Assembly: GCA_000934665.2 (NCBI GenBank)
Contig: JYFJ02002920.1
Coordinates: forward strand, 1 to 49,534
Reading direction: 5' to 3'
Length of the DNA stretch: 49,534 bases
DNA from: Catajapyx aquilonaris
Taxonomy: Eukaryota
Shown: piece after piece, positions 31,860 to 46,768 of the stretch
How positions within the stretch are numbered: position 1 is the first letter of the stretch
Layout of the letters: each line of letters begins with the position of its first letter
Program-made: the position numbers and the translations under genes
Notes under the pieces: model-generated
The model's database searches: none
The model's input: the letters and a program-made list of their open reading frames with translations, nothing else
What the model was told of the DNA's origin: nothing

Positions 31860-33213
31860 AGATAGTATCTGGTCGCTCTCGAAGTAAGAGTTTCGTAAGG
31901 TTGTTGAGTCTGCTAGTTGGTGAATTTAACAAGTCTTTGACTGAGAGTGTTGATGTCGTTCTTGGAAATTATTCCTAGGCGAACCCGGTGCAGCAATTCG
32001 ACAAATTCACTGCTTAATTTGCCTAATATTAATCGTAAGTTCGTCGTAACTGAAAAGATCTCGCCATAAATTGATGGTGCCTAACCGACCAACCTTGCGA
32101 CCAACGAATTGCTGGACATCTTTAGAGGAAATGGGTTTGAAAAGCTGGTGCCTCATGTACCGGCTGAAGCTGGAGCACGTCTCCGAACTACAGGATATGT
32201 CTTCGTCCGAACCAGCCGTTCTCTTCGTCTGAGGTTCCATATATTTCTGACAGGCGTAAATGAATGTATAGTAGGGTTAGGGGTTGGAGAGCATGGAAAC
32301 TACGTCGATTATGAAGAGTATAATGTTCTTCAGTTCAGCTCGCATGAGCTGTAGCACTTCATCTGACAGTGGGCGGTACTTTGGAGAGGTACCGTGTTCA
32401 ACGGGCAAGAGTCGATGAATGGTTAGGTCGGCAACATTGAATGCGGCGATCCCAGTCGGAGCGCAGATGGAGACCGACTGGTTCAACTCCTGTCTGATCC
32501 AGGCTTTAATAGTGTGAATAAGATAACTTTTGCCTATTCCTCCAGTTCCGCTGCAAAACATTCGCATGACTGGTCCATCATTAGTCGTTAGCATTTGTTG
32601 AACATGCAGGAACACTCGATTCCGATCTTCGTTTAAGTTCTTAATCATCTGTAGCACATCTTGCCCAACATTATTACCAATGTCATCAACTTGACGTAGA
32701 TCTTCCATGGCATTAGCAGCTTCAAGGGGCTGGAACTGCAAGGGGTTTTCAGGACACTCACCATCCTCCTGTTGGGTATCTTCGACTGCCTTAATTAGGG
32801 CAATCTTTGATTGGATGAGTTCGAAAGCAGTAGTAATCTTTGCTTGAAACTGACACTGACGGACGCCATAAGCTATGCCTTGCTCTAGTTCAAGTTTGGA
32901 GGCATATAGAGCTTCTGTGTAGGTGCGGCAGTTGGAAATAAGTTCACTTATTTCTCTCTCCAGGGTTTGAAAAGGAGAAGAGTATGGAAAAGGCAAATTT
33001 TTCTGGAGACTGCTGGGCGTCATGTCTCTGTAATGATTGATTAAATACGGACGTGATCTTTTGATAAGGATTCGTGATCCACCTATTTCGTGAAAGTCAC
33101 GTTCAGTGGACGTGGGTTTTTGCCTGATTAGATCAAGTGAACTAATGAATTCATACAAGTGCATGCGTTACAGTTATGTATGTCTGTTAGGATAGTGGTT
33201 ATCTACCCACGAC
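31860..33213 (-). mobile_element. Decayed Helentron/Helitron2 RepHel fragment (post-Rep linker plus PIF1 helicase N-half)
   Basis: SWVDNHYPNR..LYEF..RPYLINH aligns with the plus-strand copy (SWVDDYYPNR..LFDF..KPHLINH); Walker A GTGGIGKS, APTGIAAFNV, TIHRLL, IIDVVSM, NLWRDLFSYDELTINIRQ; contains stops and frameshifts. Confidence 0.9.
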
Positions 33214-33704: not shown

Positions 33705-34139
33705 TTAATAATACTGACCATCACCTGCAACCGCACGAATCCAGCTGGCCATGATGTTGACTCCAGCCTGGCTCAGGTGCAGTCCGTCCCTCGAGAGAAG
33801 GTCCCTTCTATCCTCAAACTGGGACCACAAATCTACAAAGTGGACGTCCTCGAAGTGCAGGGCTAGTTCAGTCAGCCCAGCATTGAGGACCATAGTGCGG
33901 GCATTCAGCTGGTCGATCTTGTCCTCGGCGTTCTTCTCCTTTCTGTAAAAGTTGATTGCCCTTGGCAGAACAGATGATATGTAAATGGAGCATTGGGGAT
34001 TGAGACCCCTCAGCTGCCTAACCAACTTCTCGTAATGCCTCACCGTGATCCATACATTCTCCCCCATTAGCACGTTGTTGGTGCCCAGGTTGATCCAAAT
34101 AGCCTCAGCGCAAGGCACCAACTCGACCAACATCAACAA
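33705..34139 (-). pseudogene. SGNH/GDSL hydrolase (esterase) domain, N-terminally truncated or frameshifted
   Basis: INLGTNN (block III), IYISSVLPR, FVDLW, SRDGLHLSQAG (block V DxxH); block I GDS is not seen. Confidence 0.85.
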
Positions 34140-34263
34140 TGACGCATGACTTTACAATTACTTCCTTCTTCTAAAAGAAAGTGTTGACCCTACACGGGTG
34201 AACAGCTTCTTCTTCTTCTTCTTCTTCTTCTTCTTTTTTTTGAACTTCTTCTTCACCTCTCTG

Positions 34264-38621: not shown

Positions 38622-39819
38622 TAGGGGAAGGTGGGGCAAAGTGAAACGGAGGGCAAAGCGAAACACAGGCGTAAATTTCCGTGCGGTGTGTGCCATCTCC
38701 TTTATCTTTCTACATCTAATGATCCACTTAATGATGCACATAAATCACCTGATGGCAGCACTTGTTTGAAACTACAGCGACTCTGGCAGCCATTTTTTTA
38801 TTTTGGGAGGTCGACGATGTAAATTCGGCGCTTCAGTGAATAAGCCCCTGGAGTTCAAGTAAGTCATTGTTAAAGCTATCAATTACTTTTGAGGTATCTA
38901 AGATCACTTTTCACAGCATTGTAGTTCTTAAAGTTTGATTTGATCAGCACTGTTAAAATGCCAGTAATGTTAATCGAGCCACGTGATACGGGGCAAAATG
39001 GAACGGGCAAAGTGGAACGCGTTCCGCTATGCCCCGCCAATTTTTTTCAAGTCCTCAAGAACAGGCATCCTATTATAGTACGTATACCAATGATGTGCAT
39101 AAACTAATGGAACATTCTTCATAGGGCAATTTGGAAGGCGTAAGCCATGGTCCGAAAATATCAAAGAAAAACAAACCAGGGGAAGTGGACCTTAGTCAGT
39201 TAGTCAGATATTAACGGGGTTATTCCAGACCATGTAGGTCCTTAAACCCCGGGCCCCACATAGGGCCTATATCATCACTCTAAGTCCCTTTCATCGTGGT
39301 CCGCACAGGGGCGGACCACCCGTTCGCTTCCGAATCGAACCCAAGCCGTCATAGGGTCGAGACTCGACCATTGGGACGACCAGGCGCTTGGACCAGCCAG
39401 TCCATGGCACTTGCAGTCAAAGCGGTTACGGAAAAAGCGTTAAGCTATAGGGGAGCGGCTGATTTATACGATGTCCCGATAGGCACTCTCTTCCGGCACG
39501 TTCGTCGTGCGGGAAAAGGTGAGTTACAACTAAAAGACAAGTATGTTGACCATTTCTTGACAATTATTTTTTCTACAAAACTATTCTGATCAGCCAACCC
39601 CAATCAGCCACCCGTGATGAGACTGGGACGATTCAGACAGCTCTTCACACCGGAGCGGGAGCAGGATTTGGTGGATCATATACTCCTTATATGGAGTCTA
39701 GGCTCTTTGGTCTTTCGACAAAAGAAGTACGAAGCCTGGCCTTTCAGTATGCTGAGGCCAATCACATTGAACATCCTTTCTCCAAAAGTTCGGGTTTGGC
39801 GGGAAAGGACTGGCTGGGA
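38622..39819 (+). mobile_element. 5' part of a pogo/Tigger-like (HTH_psq plus CENP-B/Tc5 HTH) DNA transposon
   Basis: Terminus taggggaaggtggggcaaagtgaaac with internal gggcaaa..gaac repeats at 38990-39020. ATG at 39147 gives MVRKYQRKTNQGKWT[SINE]SQSMALAVKAV..SYRGAADLYDVPIGTLFRHV; intron 39519-39593; then LGRFRQLFTPEREQDLVDHIL/MESRLFGLSTKEVRSLAFQYAEAN..AGKDWL. DDE domain missing. Confidence 0.85.
39192..39388 (-). mobile_element. tRNA-derived SINE inserted in the pogo-like transposase
   Basis: Reverse strand has A-box-like tggtcgtcccaatggt, B box gggttcgattc and a (ctgactaa)2 tail; TSD tggacc at 39186-39191 and 39389-39394; excision restores the frame. Confidence 0.8.
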
Positions 39820-42800
39820 CTCCACGAACGGGATGTCCCTCTTCCCTGCAGTGAGTTTGTGAAATCACGCCTGCTGAGCGTTGACGGCCGTTTCCGGAGG
39901 GACCAACAATATCTGTTCCATCTCTTATGGGACGGAGAACTGAGGGCTCTCTCGGCTGGCATCTTTCACACTCTCAGGAGTAGGAGGAACTCCCAACATG
40001 TCTGCCTCAGGACTTCTGCAGAGCCTGCAGGAGAACGACCCCAGCCTTCAGGTCGGCCTGCACACCGTGTTTAGGAACATGAGAGGAACCCGGCAGTACT
40101 GGTACCAGCGCACCAACGAACTGATGTGCATGAGCAGGGAGTTAGGCCCGCCTACGTGGTTCCTGACACTCAGCTGCGCGGAATACTTCTGGCCCGACAT
40201 GGAGGACTTCCTCAGGAAGGCGAATCCTGATCTCAGTCCTGTCTGGGAACCGTCGTGCATCATTTCTGGAGGTTGGAATTCCAGAGCAGGGGGAGTCCGC
40301 ACGTCCACATGGTCCTGTGGATTAAGGACTCTCCTGTGCTGGGCCGTGACTCGAAAGAGGATATCTGTCGCTTCATCCAGGAGCACATCACCTGCGAGCT
40401 TCCGGATGTGGCTGTTAATCCCAAGCTCCATCAGCTAGTCACCAAGTTCCAGACCCATCTGTGCAGCACATACTGTAGGCGACGCACGCAAGTCAGTGGA
40501 AAATTTGTCACCCGATGCAAATTTGGCTTCCCACGGCGGCACTGCACGATGTCATGTCCTCCATCCGCCACAGGCAGTCGGCCAAGTCAGGCAAGCGCCT
40601 CTACGAGTTGGTCAGGGGTCGTGGAGAGGAGCGCATCAACGACTATAATCCGACTGTTCTGCTGCTGTGGGAGGCAAACATGGATTTGCAGTATATCGCC
40701 GACAGCCAGAACTCCCTTTGTCACTACGTGACAAAGTATATAACCAAGGGAGAGAAGACCGTCCTGTCAGATGTTTGGGACGACATTGCCAACTCCGAGA
40801 CCCTTTGCAAGCGCCTCTGGAAATTTGCAATGCGCGTCTTGACAAACCGCGAGTACGGAGCCTATGAAGCAGCGGGGTGGCTCATCGGCGTCCACCTATA
40901 CGGCAAGACGGCCTCCGTCAAATACGTCAACGTGCACATGTCCCACGTGCGAACGAGGCGCTTAAAGACATTGGCTGCCATCGAGACCATCCGGGAGAAG
41001 TCTCCGGAGTCACGAGACATCTATGAAAACAGCTGGGTAGACGATTACTATCCTAATCGCCCGCTGTCTATGGAAAACCTCTGCCTCTTTGATTTCATGC
41101 GACTTCACGACTATGTCAAGTCGGCAAAGAACACGGAGGGACTCGTGGTACTCATGCAGGGGAAAGGGTTTCTGCGGCTGCGCAGCAAGCCTCACCTGAT
41201 CAACCACCGCTTGTTCAACCCTTCAAAGGACAGCGAGAGGGAGCAGTATTACTTCTCCATACTCTTCCTGTTCTGCCCGTGGAGCTTGGAGAGTGAGTTT
41301 CTCCAGGATCACTTCACCTACCAGTCAGCCTTTGTGGCACTCCTACCAAAGATGCAGGCTCTACATGCCTATCATGAGAAGCTGACCGCCATCAGGGAGG
41401 CGGAGGAGGCGCTGATGGAGAACTTGGAGGCGACCACGCAGAACCACGAGGCAGGACCAGATGCTCAGTCTGGAGAAGGGTTTGCTCAGGGGGCCTAGGT
41501 GGAGACGGCAGCTGTCCTAGCCATGGAGGACTTGGTAGCAGCCATGAGACCTGACCTCGTGACGAGCAATCTCGAGGATATGGTGTCGCGCCTCAACGCC
41601 GACCAGTCTCGAGTGTTTGTCCGCATCAAGGAGAAGCTGGCGTCAGCAGATCCCCTACGGATGTTTGTCAGCGGCTGTGGAGGAACGGGGAAGAGCTTCC
41701 TCACCCACACTGTCAAGGCCATGATAATGGACATGTTCCCGTCGGAGAACATCGTTGTGGCCGTGACAGCCCCTACCGGACTGGCCGCATTTAACGTGGG
41801 CGGGGTGACCATCCACAAACTCCTACAGCTTCCCGTAGAGCACGGATCCACATCAGCCTACAGGCCACTTTCGGAAGACGCGGTGCAGGTGATGCGGTCC
41901 TACTTCAGGGATCTGAAGCTGGTCATCATAGACGAGGTGTCAATGGTGTCCAACCTTTTCCTCACATACATCCACCTGCGACTGGGGGAGATATTTCCCA
42001 AAGAAGAGGTCTGGTTTGGTGGCATCAGCATCCTCCTCCTTGGAGACTTGCTGCAGCTGATGCCAGTGAAAGGACAGCCTGCCTTCAAGCCCGTCACCAG
42101 CAAGCTACTCGCAGAGAAAGTAGGTGGATCTGGCTCTCTGAACTTATGGTCGGACCTCTTCCAGTACGAGGAGCTCCTTTCCAACGTTCGACAGAAGGGC
42201 GACACGGCATATCAGGAGTTGCTGGGCGAAGTGCGCGTCGGACATGTGTCCACTGCAACCACCAACCTTCTGCGGAGCAGGGTATGGACCGACGCAGGGT
42301 CAGACCCTTGCGCCGCTTACAACTACTGGTGCAAGGCAGGCGGGATGAACCCTGTGTGCCTTCTCCCACGAAATGACATGTGCCAGATGTTTAACAAGCA
42401 AATGCTGAGCTTGTCCTGCTCGGAGACGGTGAGGCTGGAGGCGGGGGACAAAGTGACTGGCAATGCAGCTGAGAGGCAGAGAGGAACAAAGATGCTCCAG
42501 AAATTATCAGAAGATGCGTCCAGAACGGCCGGGCTGGAGGCGGTCCTAGTGCTGGGTGCTGGATGCCGTATCATGTTGAGACGAAACATGGACGTCTTGG
42601 GAGGCCTCGTCAACGGAGCCATGGGCACAGTCGCACATTTCAAACGGAACAGCCATGGGCGTATCGTGTCCGTCATCATTAATTTTGATAGCTGCCCTTC
42701 GGAGGAGAAGTCTATAGAGAGGTGCAGCGTGAAATTCGAAATTGGTGCAAACATTTATGTGGAAAGGAAGCAGTTTCCACTTGTACTTGCATAAGTACGC

Positions 42801-43935
42801 CATTACTATTCACAAGTCATAAGGCCTGACCCTCGAATCAGCAGTGGTCGACTTGAGTGAATCTGCGTTTGCGAGTGGGATGGCGTACGTGGCACTATCA
42901 CGTGTAAAGACACTAGACACCTTCTTTCTTTTACACTTGGAATCAAAGTGCATCAAGGCCGACAGGAGCTGCATCCTTGAGTACAACCGTCTCCGAGAAA
43001 CTCGCTCCATACCTCCCCTTCCCGTACCGGCCTTGAAGCGACGCATTGTTGCAGCTTCTGTAAGAAGTGATACCATCAAGATTCGTGGGTTCGCCAATCC
43101 TGGCCCGATTAAGGTGTCTTGCTACGCAAACGCCGCATTAGTCTGCCTATTCGCGCAAGCGGATTTTCGACTCCTCTTAAACTCGAAGAGGGGGGGGAGT
43201 GACATCGTTGTGGAGATGCAGAAGGCGCTCACACAACACCGTCCGCAAAAGTCTGCAGCAGCAAAGCGGCAAAAAACAACAAAGGCAGGCAATGTGGTAT
43301 TGCCATCGACGCAGGATGTGCGACGAGCTGTGGGAGAACCCTTCACTGGAGATGTACAGCAGGACGCTCTCGAGTTCTTGGACTTTCTCATTGAAAGGTT
43401 ACCAGAACCTCTCCAGCGGTGGGGCACTCACCGGATCGAGAGTGAAGAACCCTGCACCAAATGTCACTCCATCCATCTCGAAACCTCAGGAATGCAGCGC
43501 TACCTACATGTTGCAGTTCCAAGACAAGACACTGATGTTACATTCGATAGCCTATTGCAGAAGGTGGACATCCAACTGCAGTGCGCCGTATGTGCTTTCA
43601 GTTGCCCAGTGACAACCTACAGCATCCAGGAGGTCACCGGGTGTGTATTACTCCATCTGGTCCGGTATGATGAAAGAGCACGAAAGGTGACTACTGGCAT
43701 CTCAGAATTCAATCCTGACGATGTCAGAATTGCATCGGACAGATTTGTGTGCACAGCAATCATTTGTCACCAGGGGAACAGTTTGTTAAGCGGGCACTAC
43801 ACCGCCGTGGTGCGAGAGGGCAAGGAATGATTGCATGTGAATGACCAGAGCGTCAGTATTGAGACTAGTACGAAAACGCACATGAAGGATGCAGTAGCCC
43901 TATTCTTAATAGGCCTACCAGATATTCGGACCTAA
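39820..43935 (+). mobile_element. Helentron/Helitron2-type RepHel pseudogene: HUH-Y2 Rep, PIF1 helicase and C-terminal USP domain
   Basis: Rep motifs FLTLS (40160), EFQSRGSPHVH (40276), YVTKYITK (40725). Helicase GCGGTGKS (41673), APTGLAAFNV, IIDEVSM, GDLLQL, NVRQ, LVNG, QFPLVLA/YAITIHKS*GLTL, YVALSRV. Several frameshifts, a deletion near 40240 and stops at 41496, ~42820 and 43828. Confidence 0.95.
43087..43935 (+). pseudogene. Ubiquitin-specific protease (peptidase C19) domain fused to the helicase
   Basis: Cys box GFANPG..SCYANAALVCL (Cys codon 43120), QQDALEFL (43357), CTKC/CAVC zinc pair, LHLVRY, His box AIICHQG..SGHYTA (His codon 43795), *LHVND (Trp to stop at 43828). Confidence 0.88.
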
Positions 43936-43949
43936 ATCTCGAAATAAAA

Positions 43950-44270
43950 TCCTGAGGTTAGTATCCCACCCTCCCTCTATTCCATTACATATCCCATAAT
44001 GCCATAATTGACATGACAAATCTTAAATATTCCAGTCCTTGTGACCCAAAACACTTCCTGACGATCCAGACTGCCTGCTCCTTCTCCAATCTCCTCAAAC
44101 CATCTACAAAACCAAGAAAATATTTTCAAAATTCGTGAGATAAGTATCCCCCATTTCCCCTCTCTCTCTGTACCATTGCAATCCCCACAACTCCTTTACT
44201 TGCTTAAGAGTATTGACATGATAAATCTTAAATTCCAGTCCTCGTGACCCAAAACACTTCCTGAGTCTCC
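43950..44270 (+). repeat. Duplicated ~200-bp non-coding unit downstream of the Helentron ORF; related sequence at ~46775-46930
   Basis: ttgacatga[c/t]aaatcttaaat..ccagtcct.gtgacccaaaacacttcctga occurs twice; aacacttcctgac..ctgcctgc..accaagaaaa..gtaagtat recurs after the second copy. Confidence 0.75.
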
Positions 44271-44404
44271 TGAACTCAAAATATTATAATGTATTAATAT
44301 GTATGATATTAAAATGAGGCATCATTGTACCTATTCCGTACTGTCAAAAAAGAACTGAAATTATATCAAAAATGTCAAAAGTACGACTCTCATTGCACAC
44401 AGGA

Positions 44405-46768
44405 CTCGACCAGGACGAGATCACAGGCTGGAGAGATGGAGATTTTGGAATGGTACGCTAGGCAGGTGGGGGAGTATGAGAAGAAAATCCACGACTATCC
44501 ACTGATGCCATGCGTTTCCTGCCAGCGCATGCTCTACACAAGCCAAGTGGGGCGTGTGAAATGGGAGGAGCTCCGGTCCAGCGAGTCGTGGAATTCCTTC
44601 GTTGTCGAGGCCAACGTCGTTCCTTCAGAAGATAGTAGCATCTGTCACTACTGCTGGAGTAGTTTCCGCTCCAAGGAGACGCCAAACAGATGTACTACGA
44701 ACGGACTGGCCTCCGACCCTCTTCCCGACGATCTCAAGGGCCTAAACACGCTGGAAAAGATTTTGGTGCAACGTGGGAAATGCTTCCAGACAGTGGTGCG
44801 CCTTGGTACCGTTACGAGAAAACGTCCCCAGTTCGAGTTGGTCAACGCCATCCGGGGGTGCGTCGTCCACCTTCCTCTGCCAACAGAGTCCACCATCCGC
44901 TCTGTCCTGAAAAAGGAGACTTCTCCGGGTCTCACCATCCTCGTCAACGGCGTTCCCACAAAAAACAAGAATATCTGGCAGGACCTCGTCAGTCTACCCA
45001 AGGTCGTTGCAGCCCTGGCAGCTCTTCGAGGATTGAACCCATTGTACGCAGACGTCGGCATCACCACCGACGGGTCGCTGGAGAGGGAGCTCGACCTTAC
45101 AGCAAGCGACTTACGAGGGTCGTCCAATAAGTTCTGAGCCTAAGGTAGATGGCGTGATCTGATAATGTTGTCCTTCCACCTGAAGGTAGTGACACTCATT
45201 AGAGCAACAACCCCCAAACCTCACCCCGATTGCATCATTCTATCAGGAGATACTGGCACTTGCAGGCGTGAAAGTGCGGATTAGTCTCCGACATTGACAA
45301 AATCGAGCTGCGAACGGTGATCAAATACTTCCAGAAAAAGGGGATGACCCCTAAGAAGATTCACGAGGACATGAGGGAAATACTGTTTGACGAAGCTCCT
45401 TCATATGCCACTGTCAAAAGGTGGGCACGGGATTTCAAGATGGGTCGGGAGAGTGTGGAAGATGACCCCCGCTCGGGCCGCCCAGCAACGGCAACCACTG
45501 CGGAGAACGTCAACCGCATCCATGACATGGTCATGGCAGGTAGCCGACTCACCTCAGGGAGATAGCCACGGCGATGGCCATCTCGCGAGGTACTGTGAAT
45601 TCAATCCTAACGGACATATTGGGGATGCACAAGCTGTCGGCCAGATGGGTAATCTGCGACTTGACGCCTGATCGGAAGCGGATCAGTGTGACACATTCAC
45701 AGGCAACATTGGAGGAGTATCGGAGGGACCAGGACACTTTTTGGCTCGTTACGTAACACAAGATGAGACCTGGCTCCATCATTATTCTCCTGAAACCTCC
45801 GTGGGACGCACTTCTCCAGTGACAATGAGGTGATAAGTGCAATGTATGGGTGGTTGGGTGGGGTCGAGGAAGATTTTTTTTTACACGGAATACAGAGGTT
45901 GGAGCACCGGTGGGACAAATGCATCCTGGTTCAAGGTGACTACGTCGAAAAGTCTTAATAAAATTTTGACCATCAAACATGTCTTTCAACATCAGGCTCA
46001 GAACTTATTGGACGACCCACGTACCTCCTCCTATGCTAACGTCCTTGTTCCACCAGTATACCATCCATCCTCTACACCAGGTGAACAGGACAGATACTTC
46101 TAACCTTTACCAGATGCTCAGGGTTACGGCGGACCGTCTGGACAATAGGGACGTCGACACCGACATTATGTGCTTCCCCTTCCTTTATCCCATCGGGCAT
46201 TACGGCAAGCCTCACCCACGCAATATACACCTCTCAGACAGCGAGTTCGTCAAGTCCAGGCTTCTATCCTCTGACGCCCGCTACCGGAAAAATCAACAAT
46301 ATCTCTTTCACCTCCTCTGGGACGGCGAGCTCAGGGCCCTTTCCTCGGGCATCTTCCACACGCTCCAGAGCAGGCGGCCCTCCAACACGACGGCGGCAGC
46401 TTTTCTGGACAGCTTGCAGCAGAACGAATCCAGTATCCAGGTCGGCCTGCACACGATATTTCGCAACATGCGCGGTACCAGGCAATATTGGTACCAGCGC
46501 ACCAGCGAGCTGATGTGCATGTGCCGAGAGCTTGGTCCACCCAGCTGGTTCCTCACGCTCAGCTGCGCCGAGTACTTCTGACAGGTCATGGAAGAATTCT
46601 TGAGAAAGGCCAATCCCGACATCCCTCAGGGCATCTCGACAACGTCTTTGTGCGTCGAGGACCCTGTCAACGTGATGCGACATTTTGACCACCGCTTTCG
46701 CGCCATGCTTAGGTTCTTGTACTCCTCCAAATTGCCTGGGTACCATCATCCATCATTTCTGGAGGGCT
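44405..46768 (+). mobile_element. Second Helentron RepHel copy (Cys-rich/DUF6570-like N-terminus to Rep motif 1), split by mariner and truncated
   Basis: CVSCQR..CHYC..NGL..LKGLNTLEKILVQR..RGCVVHLP..KVVAALAALRGLNPLY; CFPFLYPIG; SEFVKSRLL..YLFHLLWDGELRALS..NMRGTRQYW..LGPPSWFLTLSCAEYF*, closely paralogous to 39850-40230; ends at HHFWR. Confidence 0.92.
45114..46021 (+). mobile_element. Internally deleted mariner transposon (908 bp)
   Basis: 28-bp TIRs cgagggtcgtccaataagttctgagcct / aggctcagaacttattggacgacccacg (1 mismatch); TA at 45112-45113 and 46022-46023; transposase IKYFQKKGMTPKKIHEDM..PSYATVKRW..DDPRSGRP..LSARWV..QDETWLHHY, frameshifted and missing the C-terminal half. Confidence 0.97.

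What the first reader, a model, noticed from the sequence alone, without database searches (positions are those of the whole stretch)
39820..43935. Rolling-circle transposase fused to a USP (C19) deubiquitinase
Seen: PIF1 motif VI (YVALSRV) and a complete-looking USP fold (Cys box, QQDAxEFL, two CxxC, His box GHY, ND) lie in one uninterrupted frame (42844-43830). Removing a 4-bp insertion near 42792 and reading through point stops joins this to the helicase and Rep. Established: the FLTLS and RGSPHxH Rep motifs mark the Helentron/Helitron2 group, whose usual extras are an AP endonuclease and sometimes an OTU protease. Inference: this lineage carries a USP in the endonuclease position and may use it to counter ubiquitin-dependent silencing or degradation, or to process its own protein. 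I cannot confirm from the sequence alone that this architecture is undescribed.
Basis: partly seen in the sequence, partly recalled or inferred. Interest (0 to 1): 0.8.

Follow-up and report, generated by a model that had tools for sequence, protein, structure and literature searches.

The report
Helitron transposase ending in a deubiquitinase
This is a broken copy of a rolling-circle jumping gene whose transposase ends in a ubiquitin-removing enzyme; such domains were listed in these elements in 2024, but here the enzyme is part of the same protein, is conserved, and fills a slot that relatives fill with other ubiquitin- or SUMO-removing enzymes, which suggests the transposase shields itself from being tagged for destruction.

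Summary
The fusion is real. Window 39819-44372 is a truncated, decayed copy of a multi-copy HLE2 (Helentron/Helitron2-type) family. Its RepHel frame runs from the PIF1 helicase into a compact USP/C19 domain (Pfam UCH, E 3e-12). A sibling copy has helicase plus USP in one 675-aa frame. Cys, His and Asn/Asp are kept, and dN/dS is about 0.2 between sub-lineages. Single-ORF DUF6570-Rep-PIF1-UCH proteins occur in other genomes. It is not undescribed: HELIANO (PMC11417382) lists UCH in HLE2 subgroups c/d, though it places it among domains in separate ORFs. This scan also noted it before on other DNA, this genome included. Added here: the USP is in frame and C-terminal. Of 82 relatives with a long tail, 55 carry USP, 13 OTU and 8 Ulp1/C48 there; the helicase tree suggests USP was replaced several times (AU p 7e-5 and 2e-4). 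Best reading: an active isopeptidase that strips ubiquitin from the transposase, perhaps from its covalent DNA intermediate. Activity, substrate and expression are untested, and no usable structure model was obtained.

The parts
39819..44372 (+). Truncated, decayed copy of an HLE2 (Helentron/Helitron2-type) element; both ends missing
   Evidence: 96-98% nt identity to sibling C4754 and 93-98% to C6505 over these limits; the family termini are found only in other copies
39820..40739 (+). HUH Rep domain (FLTLS 40160, FWR..RGSPHVH 40264-40308, YVTKY 40725), broken by a 1-bp insertion and deletions of about 105 and 16 bp
   Evidence: Pfam Helitron_like_N E 5.8e-12 and 1.4e-7 on two fragments; lesions
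41592..42906 (+). PIF1-family SF1B helicase, from the N-terminal core to motif VI (YVALSRV); 4-bp insertion near 42794, stop at 42820
   Evidence: Pfam PIF1 E 4.3e-27 and Pif1_2B; alignment A1
43090..43905 (+). Compact, intronless USP (C19) domain of about 272 aa, in frame with the helicase end: Asn 43096, Cys 43120, QQDALEF 43357, two CxxC, His 43795, Asn-Asp 43840; premature TGA at 43828 in this copy
   Evidence: Pfam UCH E 3.2e-12, or 7.7e-18 read through; the sibling's domain hits PDB USP2 at E 7e-7; Trp codon instead of the stop in sibling frames
43936..44372 (+). 3' non-coding part: a repeat of about 200 bp, then the start of the inner inverted copy of the family's right end, where this copy is cut off
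   Evidence: direct repeats at spacing 203-205; the match to siblings ends at 44372
44373..46765 (+). N-terminal part (DUF6570, start of Rep) of a second, diverged HLE2 element joined at the break; interrupted at about 45140-46020 by a stretch that reads like a mariner remnant (recalled resemblance, not tested)
   Evidence: Pfam DUF6570 E 3.6e-13 and Helitron_like_N E 2.6e-10; 73% nt identity to C4754
39401..39818 (+). Psq-type HTH and following coding remnant of an unrelated DNA transposon, abutting the truncated 5' end
   Evidence: Pfam HTH_psq E 7.8e-9; no match to sibling HLE2 copies upstream of 39819

Best explanation
A dead copy of an HLE2 rolling-circle transposon whose single ORF (about 2,100 aa in the family) encodes DUF6570 - HUH Rep - PIF1 helicase - USP. 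SHOWN: the domain order and in-frame fusion; HLE2-type Rep motifs and ends; retention of the catalytic residues; purifying selection on the USP; the same slot filled by OTU or Ulp1/C48 in related elements. INFERRED: the USP was an active deubiquitinase in the transposing lineage and, being tethered to the transposase, acts mainly in cis: it removes ubiquitin from the transposase or from proteins at the transposition site, so that the host does not degrade or extract the complex before strand transfer. SPECULATIVE: the critical substrate is the covalent 5'-phosphotyrosine transposase-DNA intermediate, which the host would treat as a DNA-protein crosslink and tag with SUMO and ubiquitin. That would explain why ubiquitin and SUMO proteases can replace one another in this slot.
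For: In-frame helicase+UCH in sibling C4754 (675 aa, UCH E 2.9e-16), with the rest of its ORF open for 1289 aa up to one 775-bp insertion. 123 matches in the own genome (120 of 257 candidates scored), with close copies at 93-98% and subfamilies at 35-55% identity. In 10 close copies Cys, His and Asn-Asp are each present in 8 of the 8 copies that cover them; the Cys box was readable in 20 contigs among the 30 best loci, 19 with Cys and 1 with a stop. USP dN/dS is 0.20 for C4754 vs C6505 (helicase 0.12), 0.21 for shared changes (p 2.5e-6) and 0.20 without CpG sites (p 1.6e-6). Of 60 representatives scanned, 37 carry PF00443 at E<=0.001, 2 more UCH_1, 5 OTU/C65, 5 C48, 11 none. 29 of 37 aligned foreign USP tails keep both Cys and His. 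Tail census 55 USP, 13 OTU, 8 C48, 6 other of 82. A helicase tree rooted on 3 endonuclease-tailed rows has USP basal, OTU in 3 places and C48 in 1; AU tests reject a USP-only clade (p 7e-5) and an OTU-only clade (p 2e-4). Literature: Helitron VTD domains are active K48/K63 DUBs (PMC9741609, passages); Helraiser stays covalently bound through a 5'-phosphotyrosine (PMC5876387, passages); an HUH-DNA adduct recruits PARP1 and SPRTN, and crosslinks are SUMO- and ubiquitin-tagged (bioRxiv 10.64898/2026.01.09.698661, passages).
Against: No activity, substrate or expression data. This copy is dead. 8 of 37 foreign tails lack Cys or His in the alignment (1 is cut short), so activity is dispensable in some lineages, or those rows are decayed. 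Private changes also show dN/dS below 1 (0.51), so shared and private classes do not split cleanly into selected and neutral. The census is biased toward USP because the query carried a USP tail and only the best 150 of 23,065 hits were listed. The tree is a quick search with 17 of 62 inner branches open and a three-row outgroup, and I had seen a first tree before running the AU tests. Canonical Helitrons such as Helraiser transpose with no such domain, so it is not required for the chemistry. The domain is divergent (best PDB E 7e-7), and its fold was not confirmed by a model.
Confidence: 0.55

Rival explanations
1. The USP acts in trans on chromatin or host signalling: it removes H2A/H2B ubiquitin or edits replication and repair marks (such as PCNA ubiquitin) to lift silencing or steer repair at donor and target sites.
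For: The best PDB matches of the family profile include USP12/46, USP2, USP21, USP36 and Ubp8, several of which act on histones (recalled). Fusion to a DNA-binding transposase would deliver it to chromatin.
Against: Those matches are near-equal and distant (E 1e-24 to 1e-15), so they name no donor or substrate. Replacement by OTU and Ulp1, which have unrelated substrate surfaces, fits a generic self-protective role better than one chromatin mark (inference).
Confidence: 0.22
2. The domain works mainly as a ubiquitin-binding or scaffolding module, or cleaves another ubiquitin-like modifier (NEDD8, SUMO); ubiquitin hydrolysis is secondary.
For: Cys is replaced in 7 of 37 foreign tails that keep the rest of the domain; one relative carries two USP domains in tandem (P0008); Helitron VTDs also cleave NEDD8.
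Against: Cys and His are kept together in 29 of 37 tails and in every close copy that covers them.
Confidence: 0.13
3. The USP is a polyprotein-processing protease that cuts the RepHel precursor.
For: Viral DUBs often also process polyproteins (PMC9741609, passage).
Against: No ubiquitin-like domain was reported by Pfam in the sibling ORFs; USPs need a ubiquitin fold in the S1 site (established knowledge); I saw no conserved Gly-Gly site in the helicase-USP consensus. The N-terminal half was not searched for such a site.
Confidence: 0.05
4. A neutral passenger: a host USP captured once by this element, with no role.
For: Helitrons capture host gene fragments, and this copy is decayed.
Against: Intronless, whereas host USPs match exon by exon; its closest matches are other transposon tails, not host loci; dN/dS about 0.2; the same position is held across deeply diverged elements.
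Confidence: 0.03

Closest known systems
UCH-bearing HLE2 elements, subgroups c and d of HELIANO (Li et al., NAR 2024, PMC11417382; Introduction and two Results sections read, supplement searched)
   Same: HLE2 transposase with DUF6570, Rep and PIF1; PF00443 stably carried; no endonuclease.
   Different: The paper groups UCH with domains 'encoded in different ORFs' and gives no catalytic, selection or functional analysis in the sections read; its c/d elements come mostly from lungfish and axolotl. Here the USP is in frame and C-terminal. Figures 7 and 8 could not be seen, so the side and distance they show for UCH are unknown to me.
Helentrons with a C-terminal AP endonuclease (Thomas et al. 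2014, PMC4067079; passages read)
   Same: Diagnostic F/YxR and RGSPHxH Rep residues, short subterminal inverted repeats, non-autonomous partners, an extra domain fused to the helicase C-terminus.
   Different: The fused domain is a USP, not an endonuclease; endonuclease-tailed relatives form a separate branch.
Helitron-encoded VTD and OTU deubiquitinases (Erven et al., Nat Commun 2022, PMC9741609; passages read)
   Same: A DUB inside the transposase ORF; the proposed role is to prevent proteasomal degradation of transposition proteins.
   Different: Another protease class (VTD or OTU) in endonuclease-bearing Helentrons; VTD activity was shown, USP activity was not.
Cellular USPs (MEROPS C19, PF00443), such as USP2, USP12/46, USP21
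   Same: Cys box, QQDAxEF, paired CxxC, LxRY/F, HxG..GHY and WxxxND motifs in order.
   Different: Minimal domain of about 272 aa without insertions or accessory domains, intronless, very divergent, and fused to a transposase.

Membership tests
HLE2 (Helentron/Helitron2) | RepHel transposase: HUH Rep followed by a PIF1 helicase in one ORF | tested here: met
   Pfam on window fragments and on the sibling's 1289-aa frame
HLE2 (Helentron/Helitron2) | Diagnostic Rep residues F/YxR and S in RGSPHxH; DUF6570 marker | tested here: met
   FWRLEFQSRGSPHVH in the window against the criteria in PMC4067079; DUF6570 in siblings, named as an HLE2 marker in PMC11417382
HLE2 (Helentron/Helitron2) | Short subterminal inverted repeats rather than 5'-TC and 3'-CTRR ends | tested here: met
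   Family ends, absent from the window copy: a shared left end with a hairpin and AAGTAAGACC in 13 copies, 2 of them upstream of the RepHel ORF (C7635, C6505); a shared right end with GGTCTTACT about 50 bp inside in most of 13 copies. The match is 10 bp, shorter than the 12-15 bp reported for mite elements.
HLE2 (Helentron/Helitron2) | Insertion between T and T | tested here: inconclusive
   Ends begin with TAT(T) in 10 of 13 and finish in AT or ATT, with varied flanks; no empty sites were compared
Helentron in the strict sense | C-terminal AP endonuclease | tested here: not met
   No Exo_endo_phos hit; the ORF ends after the USP
HELIANO HLE2 subgroups c/d | Placement of the RepHel within those clades | not tested
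   Their reference sequences were not in hand; only the shared UCH domain points there
USP / C19 peptidases | PF00443 match above the curated cut-off over the whole domain | tested here: met
   47-65 bits against 23.9; profile positions 3-253 of 254
USP / C19 peptidases | Cys-His-Asn/Asp triad and oxyanion Asn | tested here: met
   Present in the window (ND after the premature stop) and in siblings
USP / C19 peptidases | Thumb-palm-fingers fold | tested here: inconclusive
   Single-sequence model pLDDT 32; the alignment-based job had not finished; only sequence and profile matches to solved USPs
USP / C19 peptidases | Cleaves after the C-terminal Gly of ubiquitin | not testable with these tools
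   Needs an enzyme assay

The most novel reading that the evidence does not exclude
A large HLE2 clade has a dedicated C-terminal isopeptidase slot, ancestrally USP and repeatedly refilled with OTU or Ulp1, whose job is to strip SUMO or ubiquitin from the transposase's own covalent DNA intermediate and so evade host DNA-protein-crosslink repair. That would be a transposon counter-defence against the SUMO/ubiquitin, proteasome and SPRTN pathway, and would cast crosslink repair as a restriction system for rolling-circle elements.
Probability: 0.25. Interest if true: 0.78.

Novelty: new variant of a known kind. Interest (0 to 1): 0.42.

Why it matters
If the domain is active, a fourth ubiquitin-family protease class (after VTD, OTU and Ulp1) serves rolling-circle transposons, and their repeated exchange in one slot would be strong evidence that hosts restrict these elements through ubiquitin or SUMO tagging. 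It gives a direct test of an open question, why Helitrons carry deubiquitinases, and supplies minimal stand-alone USP domains. The presence of UCH in HLE2 elements is already in print, and this copy is dead, which caps the interest.

Tried and rejected
RNA run search: no RNA holder listed, which is no evidence either way; no reads were laid. A search for named host USP relatives with P0007 residues 425-695 returned only itself and one unnamed protein, so no USP tree against host USPs was built and the donor is unknown. Phage collection: no match to the USP domain. Viral contigs: the best 80 of 467 loci match only the helicase (to residue 375 at most), and none of the 80 loci showed a USP with my profile. 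The ESM Atlas's nearest clusters are stand-alone compact USPs, several from giant viruses: a lead only, which compactness alone could produce. No complex prediction was run, since a USP-ubiquitin pair would pass by likeness to solved structures. One-off capture and chance juxtaposition were rejected. Print searches: helitron + ubiquitin carboxyl-terminal hydrolase (9 papers), helentron + otu + ubiquitin (5), helitron + deubiquitinase (10), helitron + ulp1 + protease + transposase (13), helitron + ubiquitin-specific protease + helicase (6), helitron2 + uch (2), transposase/deubiquitinase/transposon-encoded/sumo protease (20). In the listings and in the papers opened, none described an in-frame C-terminal USP or exchange of the slot. 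Most listed papers were seen only as listings; Repbase, Dfam and most subscription journals were not searchable.
Full report
Observation. The frame 42823-43830 (+) starts in the last part of a PIF1 helicase (YVALSRV at 42886-42906) and continues without a stop into a domain that Pfam calls UCH (PF00443, the USP/C19 family) at E 3.2e-12, 47 bits against a cut-off of 23.9. Read through the TGA at 43828, it covers profile positions 3-253 of 254 at E 7.7e-18. Upstream are PIF1 (E 4.3e-27) and two Helitron_like_N fragments. It is cut at 39819 and at 44372, where it joins the N-terminal part of a second HLE2 element. This copy is dead.

The family in this genome. A protein search of the own genome gave 123 matches (120 of 257 candidates scored). 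Three other copies match the whole query without stops at 93-98% identity, and further subfamilies match at 35-55%. In C4754 a 1289-aa frame (DUF6570, Rep, first half of PIF1) is interrupted by one 775-bp insertion and followed by a 675-aa frame with the rest of the helicase and UCH (E 2.9e-16). From the ATG at 1779 to the stop near 8099 in C6505 the ORF would be about 2,100 aa. Ends were found in other copies: a shared left end with a hairpin and a 10-bp repeat, which lies upstream of the ORF in C7635 and C6505, and a shared right end with the inverse repeat about 50 bp inside. Non-autonomous copies of about 2 kb share both ends. With the FWR and RGSPHVH residues (criteria from PMC4067079, passages) and DUF6570 (PMC11417382), this is an HLE2 element. 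It is not a Helentron in the strict sense, because it has no endonuclease. The T|T target rule could not be settled without empty sites.

Selection on the USP. In 10 close copies, Cys, His and Asn-Asp are each present in 8 of the 8 that cover them. Among the 30 best loci the Cys box was readable in 20 contigs, 19 with Cys and 1 with a stop. dN/dS in the USP is 0.20 between C4754 and C6505 (helicase 0.12) and ranges from 0.17 to 0.66 across the 21 pairs of 7 copies, higher for the more decayed copies. Changes shared by two or more copies give 0.21 (22 synonymous, 15 non-synonymous; p 2.5e-6), private changes 0.51, and non-CpG sites 0.20 (p 1.6e-6). Host USP genes match Pfam exon by exon, while the element's USP is intronless. 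Its best matches are other transposon tails; no host locus was among the printed top rows of the single-sequence search, and host exons matched the family profile at E 3e-19 or weaker. It is therefore not a recent capture of one host gene.

Other genomes. A JGI protein of 1826 aa on a 5,859-bp contig has DUF6570, Rep, PIF1 and UCH in one ORF. A search of 1.84 billion representatives with the 675-aa frame gave 23,065 hits, of which the best 150 were listed. I chose 80 of them that had a recognisable motif VI and a tail of 150 aa or more and scanned 60 with Pfam in two calls: 37 had PF00443, 2 only UCH_1, 5 OTU or C65, 5 Ulp1/C48 and 11 none at E<=0.001. Twelve proteins, counting the JGI one, carry DUF6570, Rep, PIF1 and UCH in one sequence, several on contigs barely longer than the coding length. 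Named hosts among the 30 looked up include Bemisia tabaci, Rhodnius prolixus and Bursaphelenchus xylophilus (USP-type tails) and the ctenophores Mnemiopsis leidyi and Pleurobrachia bachei (C48 tails); most carry no name. Of 37 aligned foreign USP tails, 30 keep Cys, 33 His and 29 both. A profile of 26 helicase-USP proteins hits solved PIF1 helicases, Helraiser (E 1.7e-39) and USP12, USP15, USP2, USP8 and others at E 1e-24 to 1e-15.

An exchangeable slot. With profiles built from the Pfam-positive tails, 82 of the 150 representatives had a helicase end and a tail of 200 aa or more: 55 USP, 13 OTU, 8 C48 and 6 other. Two of the six are AP endonucleases, three look like diverged USPs by eye and one is unassigned. 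Pfam confirmed OTU or C48 in 5 of 5 profile-assigned rows rechecked. A helicase-only tree of 65 rows with an assigned tail, rooted on 3 endonuclease-tailed rows, places USP-tailed rows at the base and throughout, OTU in three places and C48 in one. AU tests reject one clade for USP (p 7e-5) and for OTU (p 2e-4) (a first tree of 105 rows agreed). Rows without an assigned tail or with a short helicase match were left out. The tree is a quick search with 17 of 62 inner branches open, the outgroup is small, the groups were tested after a first tree had been seen, and the census favours USP because the query had one. Within those limits, the simplest reading is an ancestral USP that was replaced two or three times by OTU, with C48 arising once beside or within one of those OTU branches. 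Each replacement is again a ubiquitin- or SUMO-family isopeptidase.

Mechanism. Rep nicks and stays bound to DNA through a 5'-phosphotyrosine, as shown for Helraiser (PMC5876387, passages), and the helicase unwinds the strand. The tethered USP most likely removes ubiquitin from the transposase or its complex (inference; confidence 0.55). Erven et al. showed that Helitron VTD domains cleave K48 and K63 chains and proposed protection from the proteasome (PMC9741609, passages). A sharper, speculative version: the covalent intermediate is a DNA-protein crosslink. A preprint used a viral HUH-DNA adduct as a crosslink that recruits PARP1 and SPRTN, and notes that crosslinks are tagged with SUMO and ubiquitin for degradation (10.64898/2026.01.09.698661, passages). 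Either a DUB or a SUMO protease would interrupt that path, which would account for the exchange and for the fusion in cis (probability about 0.25). The rivals are action on chromatin marks, a binding or other-modifier role, self-processing and neutral carriage; the last is rejected.

What is known. HELIANO (PMC11417382; Introduction and two Results sections read, supplement searched, figures not seen) lists UCH among 20 captured domains, almost only in HLE2 and enriched in subgroups c and d, and also lists OTU and Peptidase_C48; it groups UCH with domains in different ORFs. The bioRxiv version was seen as passages; its supplements are closed. So the association is in print. The in-frame C-terminal position, the catalytic conservation, the selection and the slot exchange were not found in seven searches, but Repbase, Dfam and most subscription journals were out of reach. 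This scan's own notes hold five earlier reports of the same fusion, two of them in this genome; I had found the HELIANO paper before reading them. Two further note searches on the slot exchange found none that held all the words.

Limits and verdict. No usable structure model, no expression data and no donor for the USP. It is a new variant of a known kind, interest 0.42.

Noticed in passing
Family right end, e.g. L032:324-485 and 1011-1172; L120:7798-8621; L039:337-501 and 827-991; the window copy is cut inside the inner arm at 44372: The last 140-165 bp of the element are repeated in inverted orientation about 800 bp inside it. The two arms co-vary within an element (2.2 mismatches per 100 within, 4.2-4.5 between elements, 8.6 in the spacer; 13 elements), and a subfamily only about 72% identical has the same layout with 99% matched arms. 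This suggests the arms are homogenised or recopied; an assembly artefact is not excluded. I did not see it among the Helentron end features in the passages read.
   Followed up: partly
L036 (C5445) 1350-2344 and L032 (C4754) beyond 1150: The segment between the arms is flipped in one copy, and another copy runs on into the inverted inner flank of a non-autonomous subfamily; both look like recombination or template switching between the arms.
   Followed up: partly
window 44373-46765 (+): N-terminal part of a second HLE2 family (DUF6570, Rep start; 73% nt identity to the first), fused at a deletion junction and interrupted by a mariner-like remnant at about 45140-46020 (resemblance recalled, not tested).
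   Followed up: partly
window 32019-33212 (-): Fragment of a third HLE2-like helicase (PIF1 E 2.5e-9), cut off before any tail.
   Followed up: partly
window 33708-34151 (-): GDSL/SGNH hydrolase-like ORF (Lipase_GDSL_2 E 1.7e-14); such domains are recalled from retrotransposon ORF1 proteins.
   Followed up: no
proteins P0008, P0095, P0131, P0002: Some relatives carry two USP domains: tandem at the C-terminus (P0008, P0131, partly P0002) or one at each end of the transposase (P0095).
   Followed up: no
L031:6266-7041: A 775-bp insertion splits the otherwise open RepHel ORF of sibling C4754; part of it recurs in L040.
   Followed up: no
L033:1779-2100: The family ORF starts with a basic, repetitive segment (units of about 13 aa) ahead of DUF6570; no Pfam hit.
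   Followed up: no
L031:8170-9036 (USP domain): The nearest ESM Atlas clusters are compact stand-alone USPs, some from Nucleocytoviricota; a possible lead on the donor.
   Followed up: no
protein P0118, last 290 aa: A C-terminal tail with no Pfam hit and a Cys..His pattern; possibly a further protease type in the same slot.
   Followed up: no
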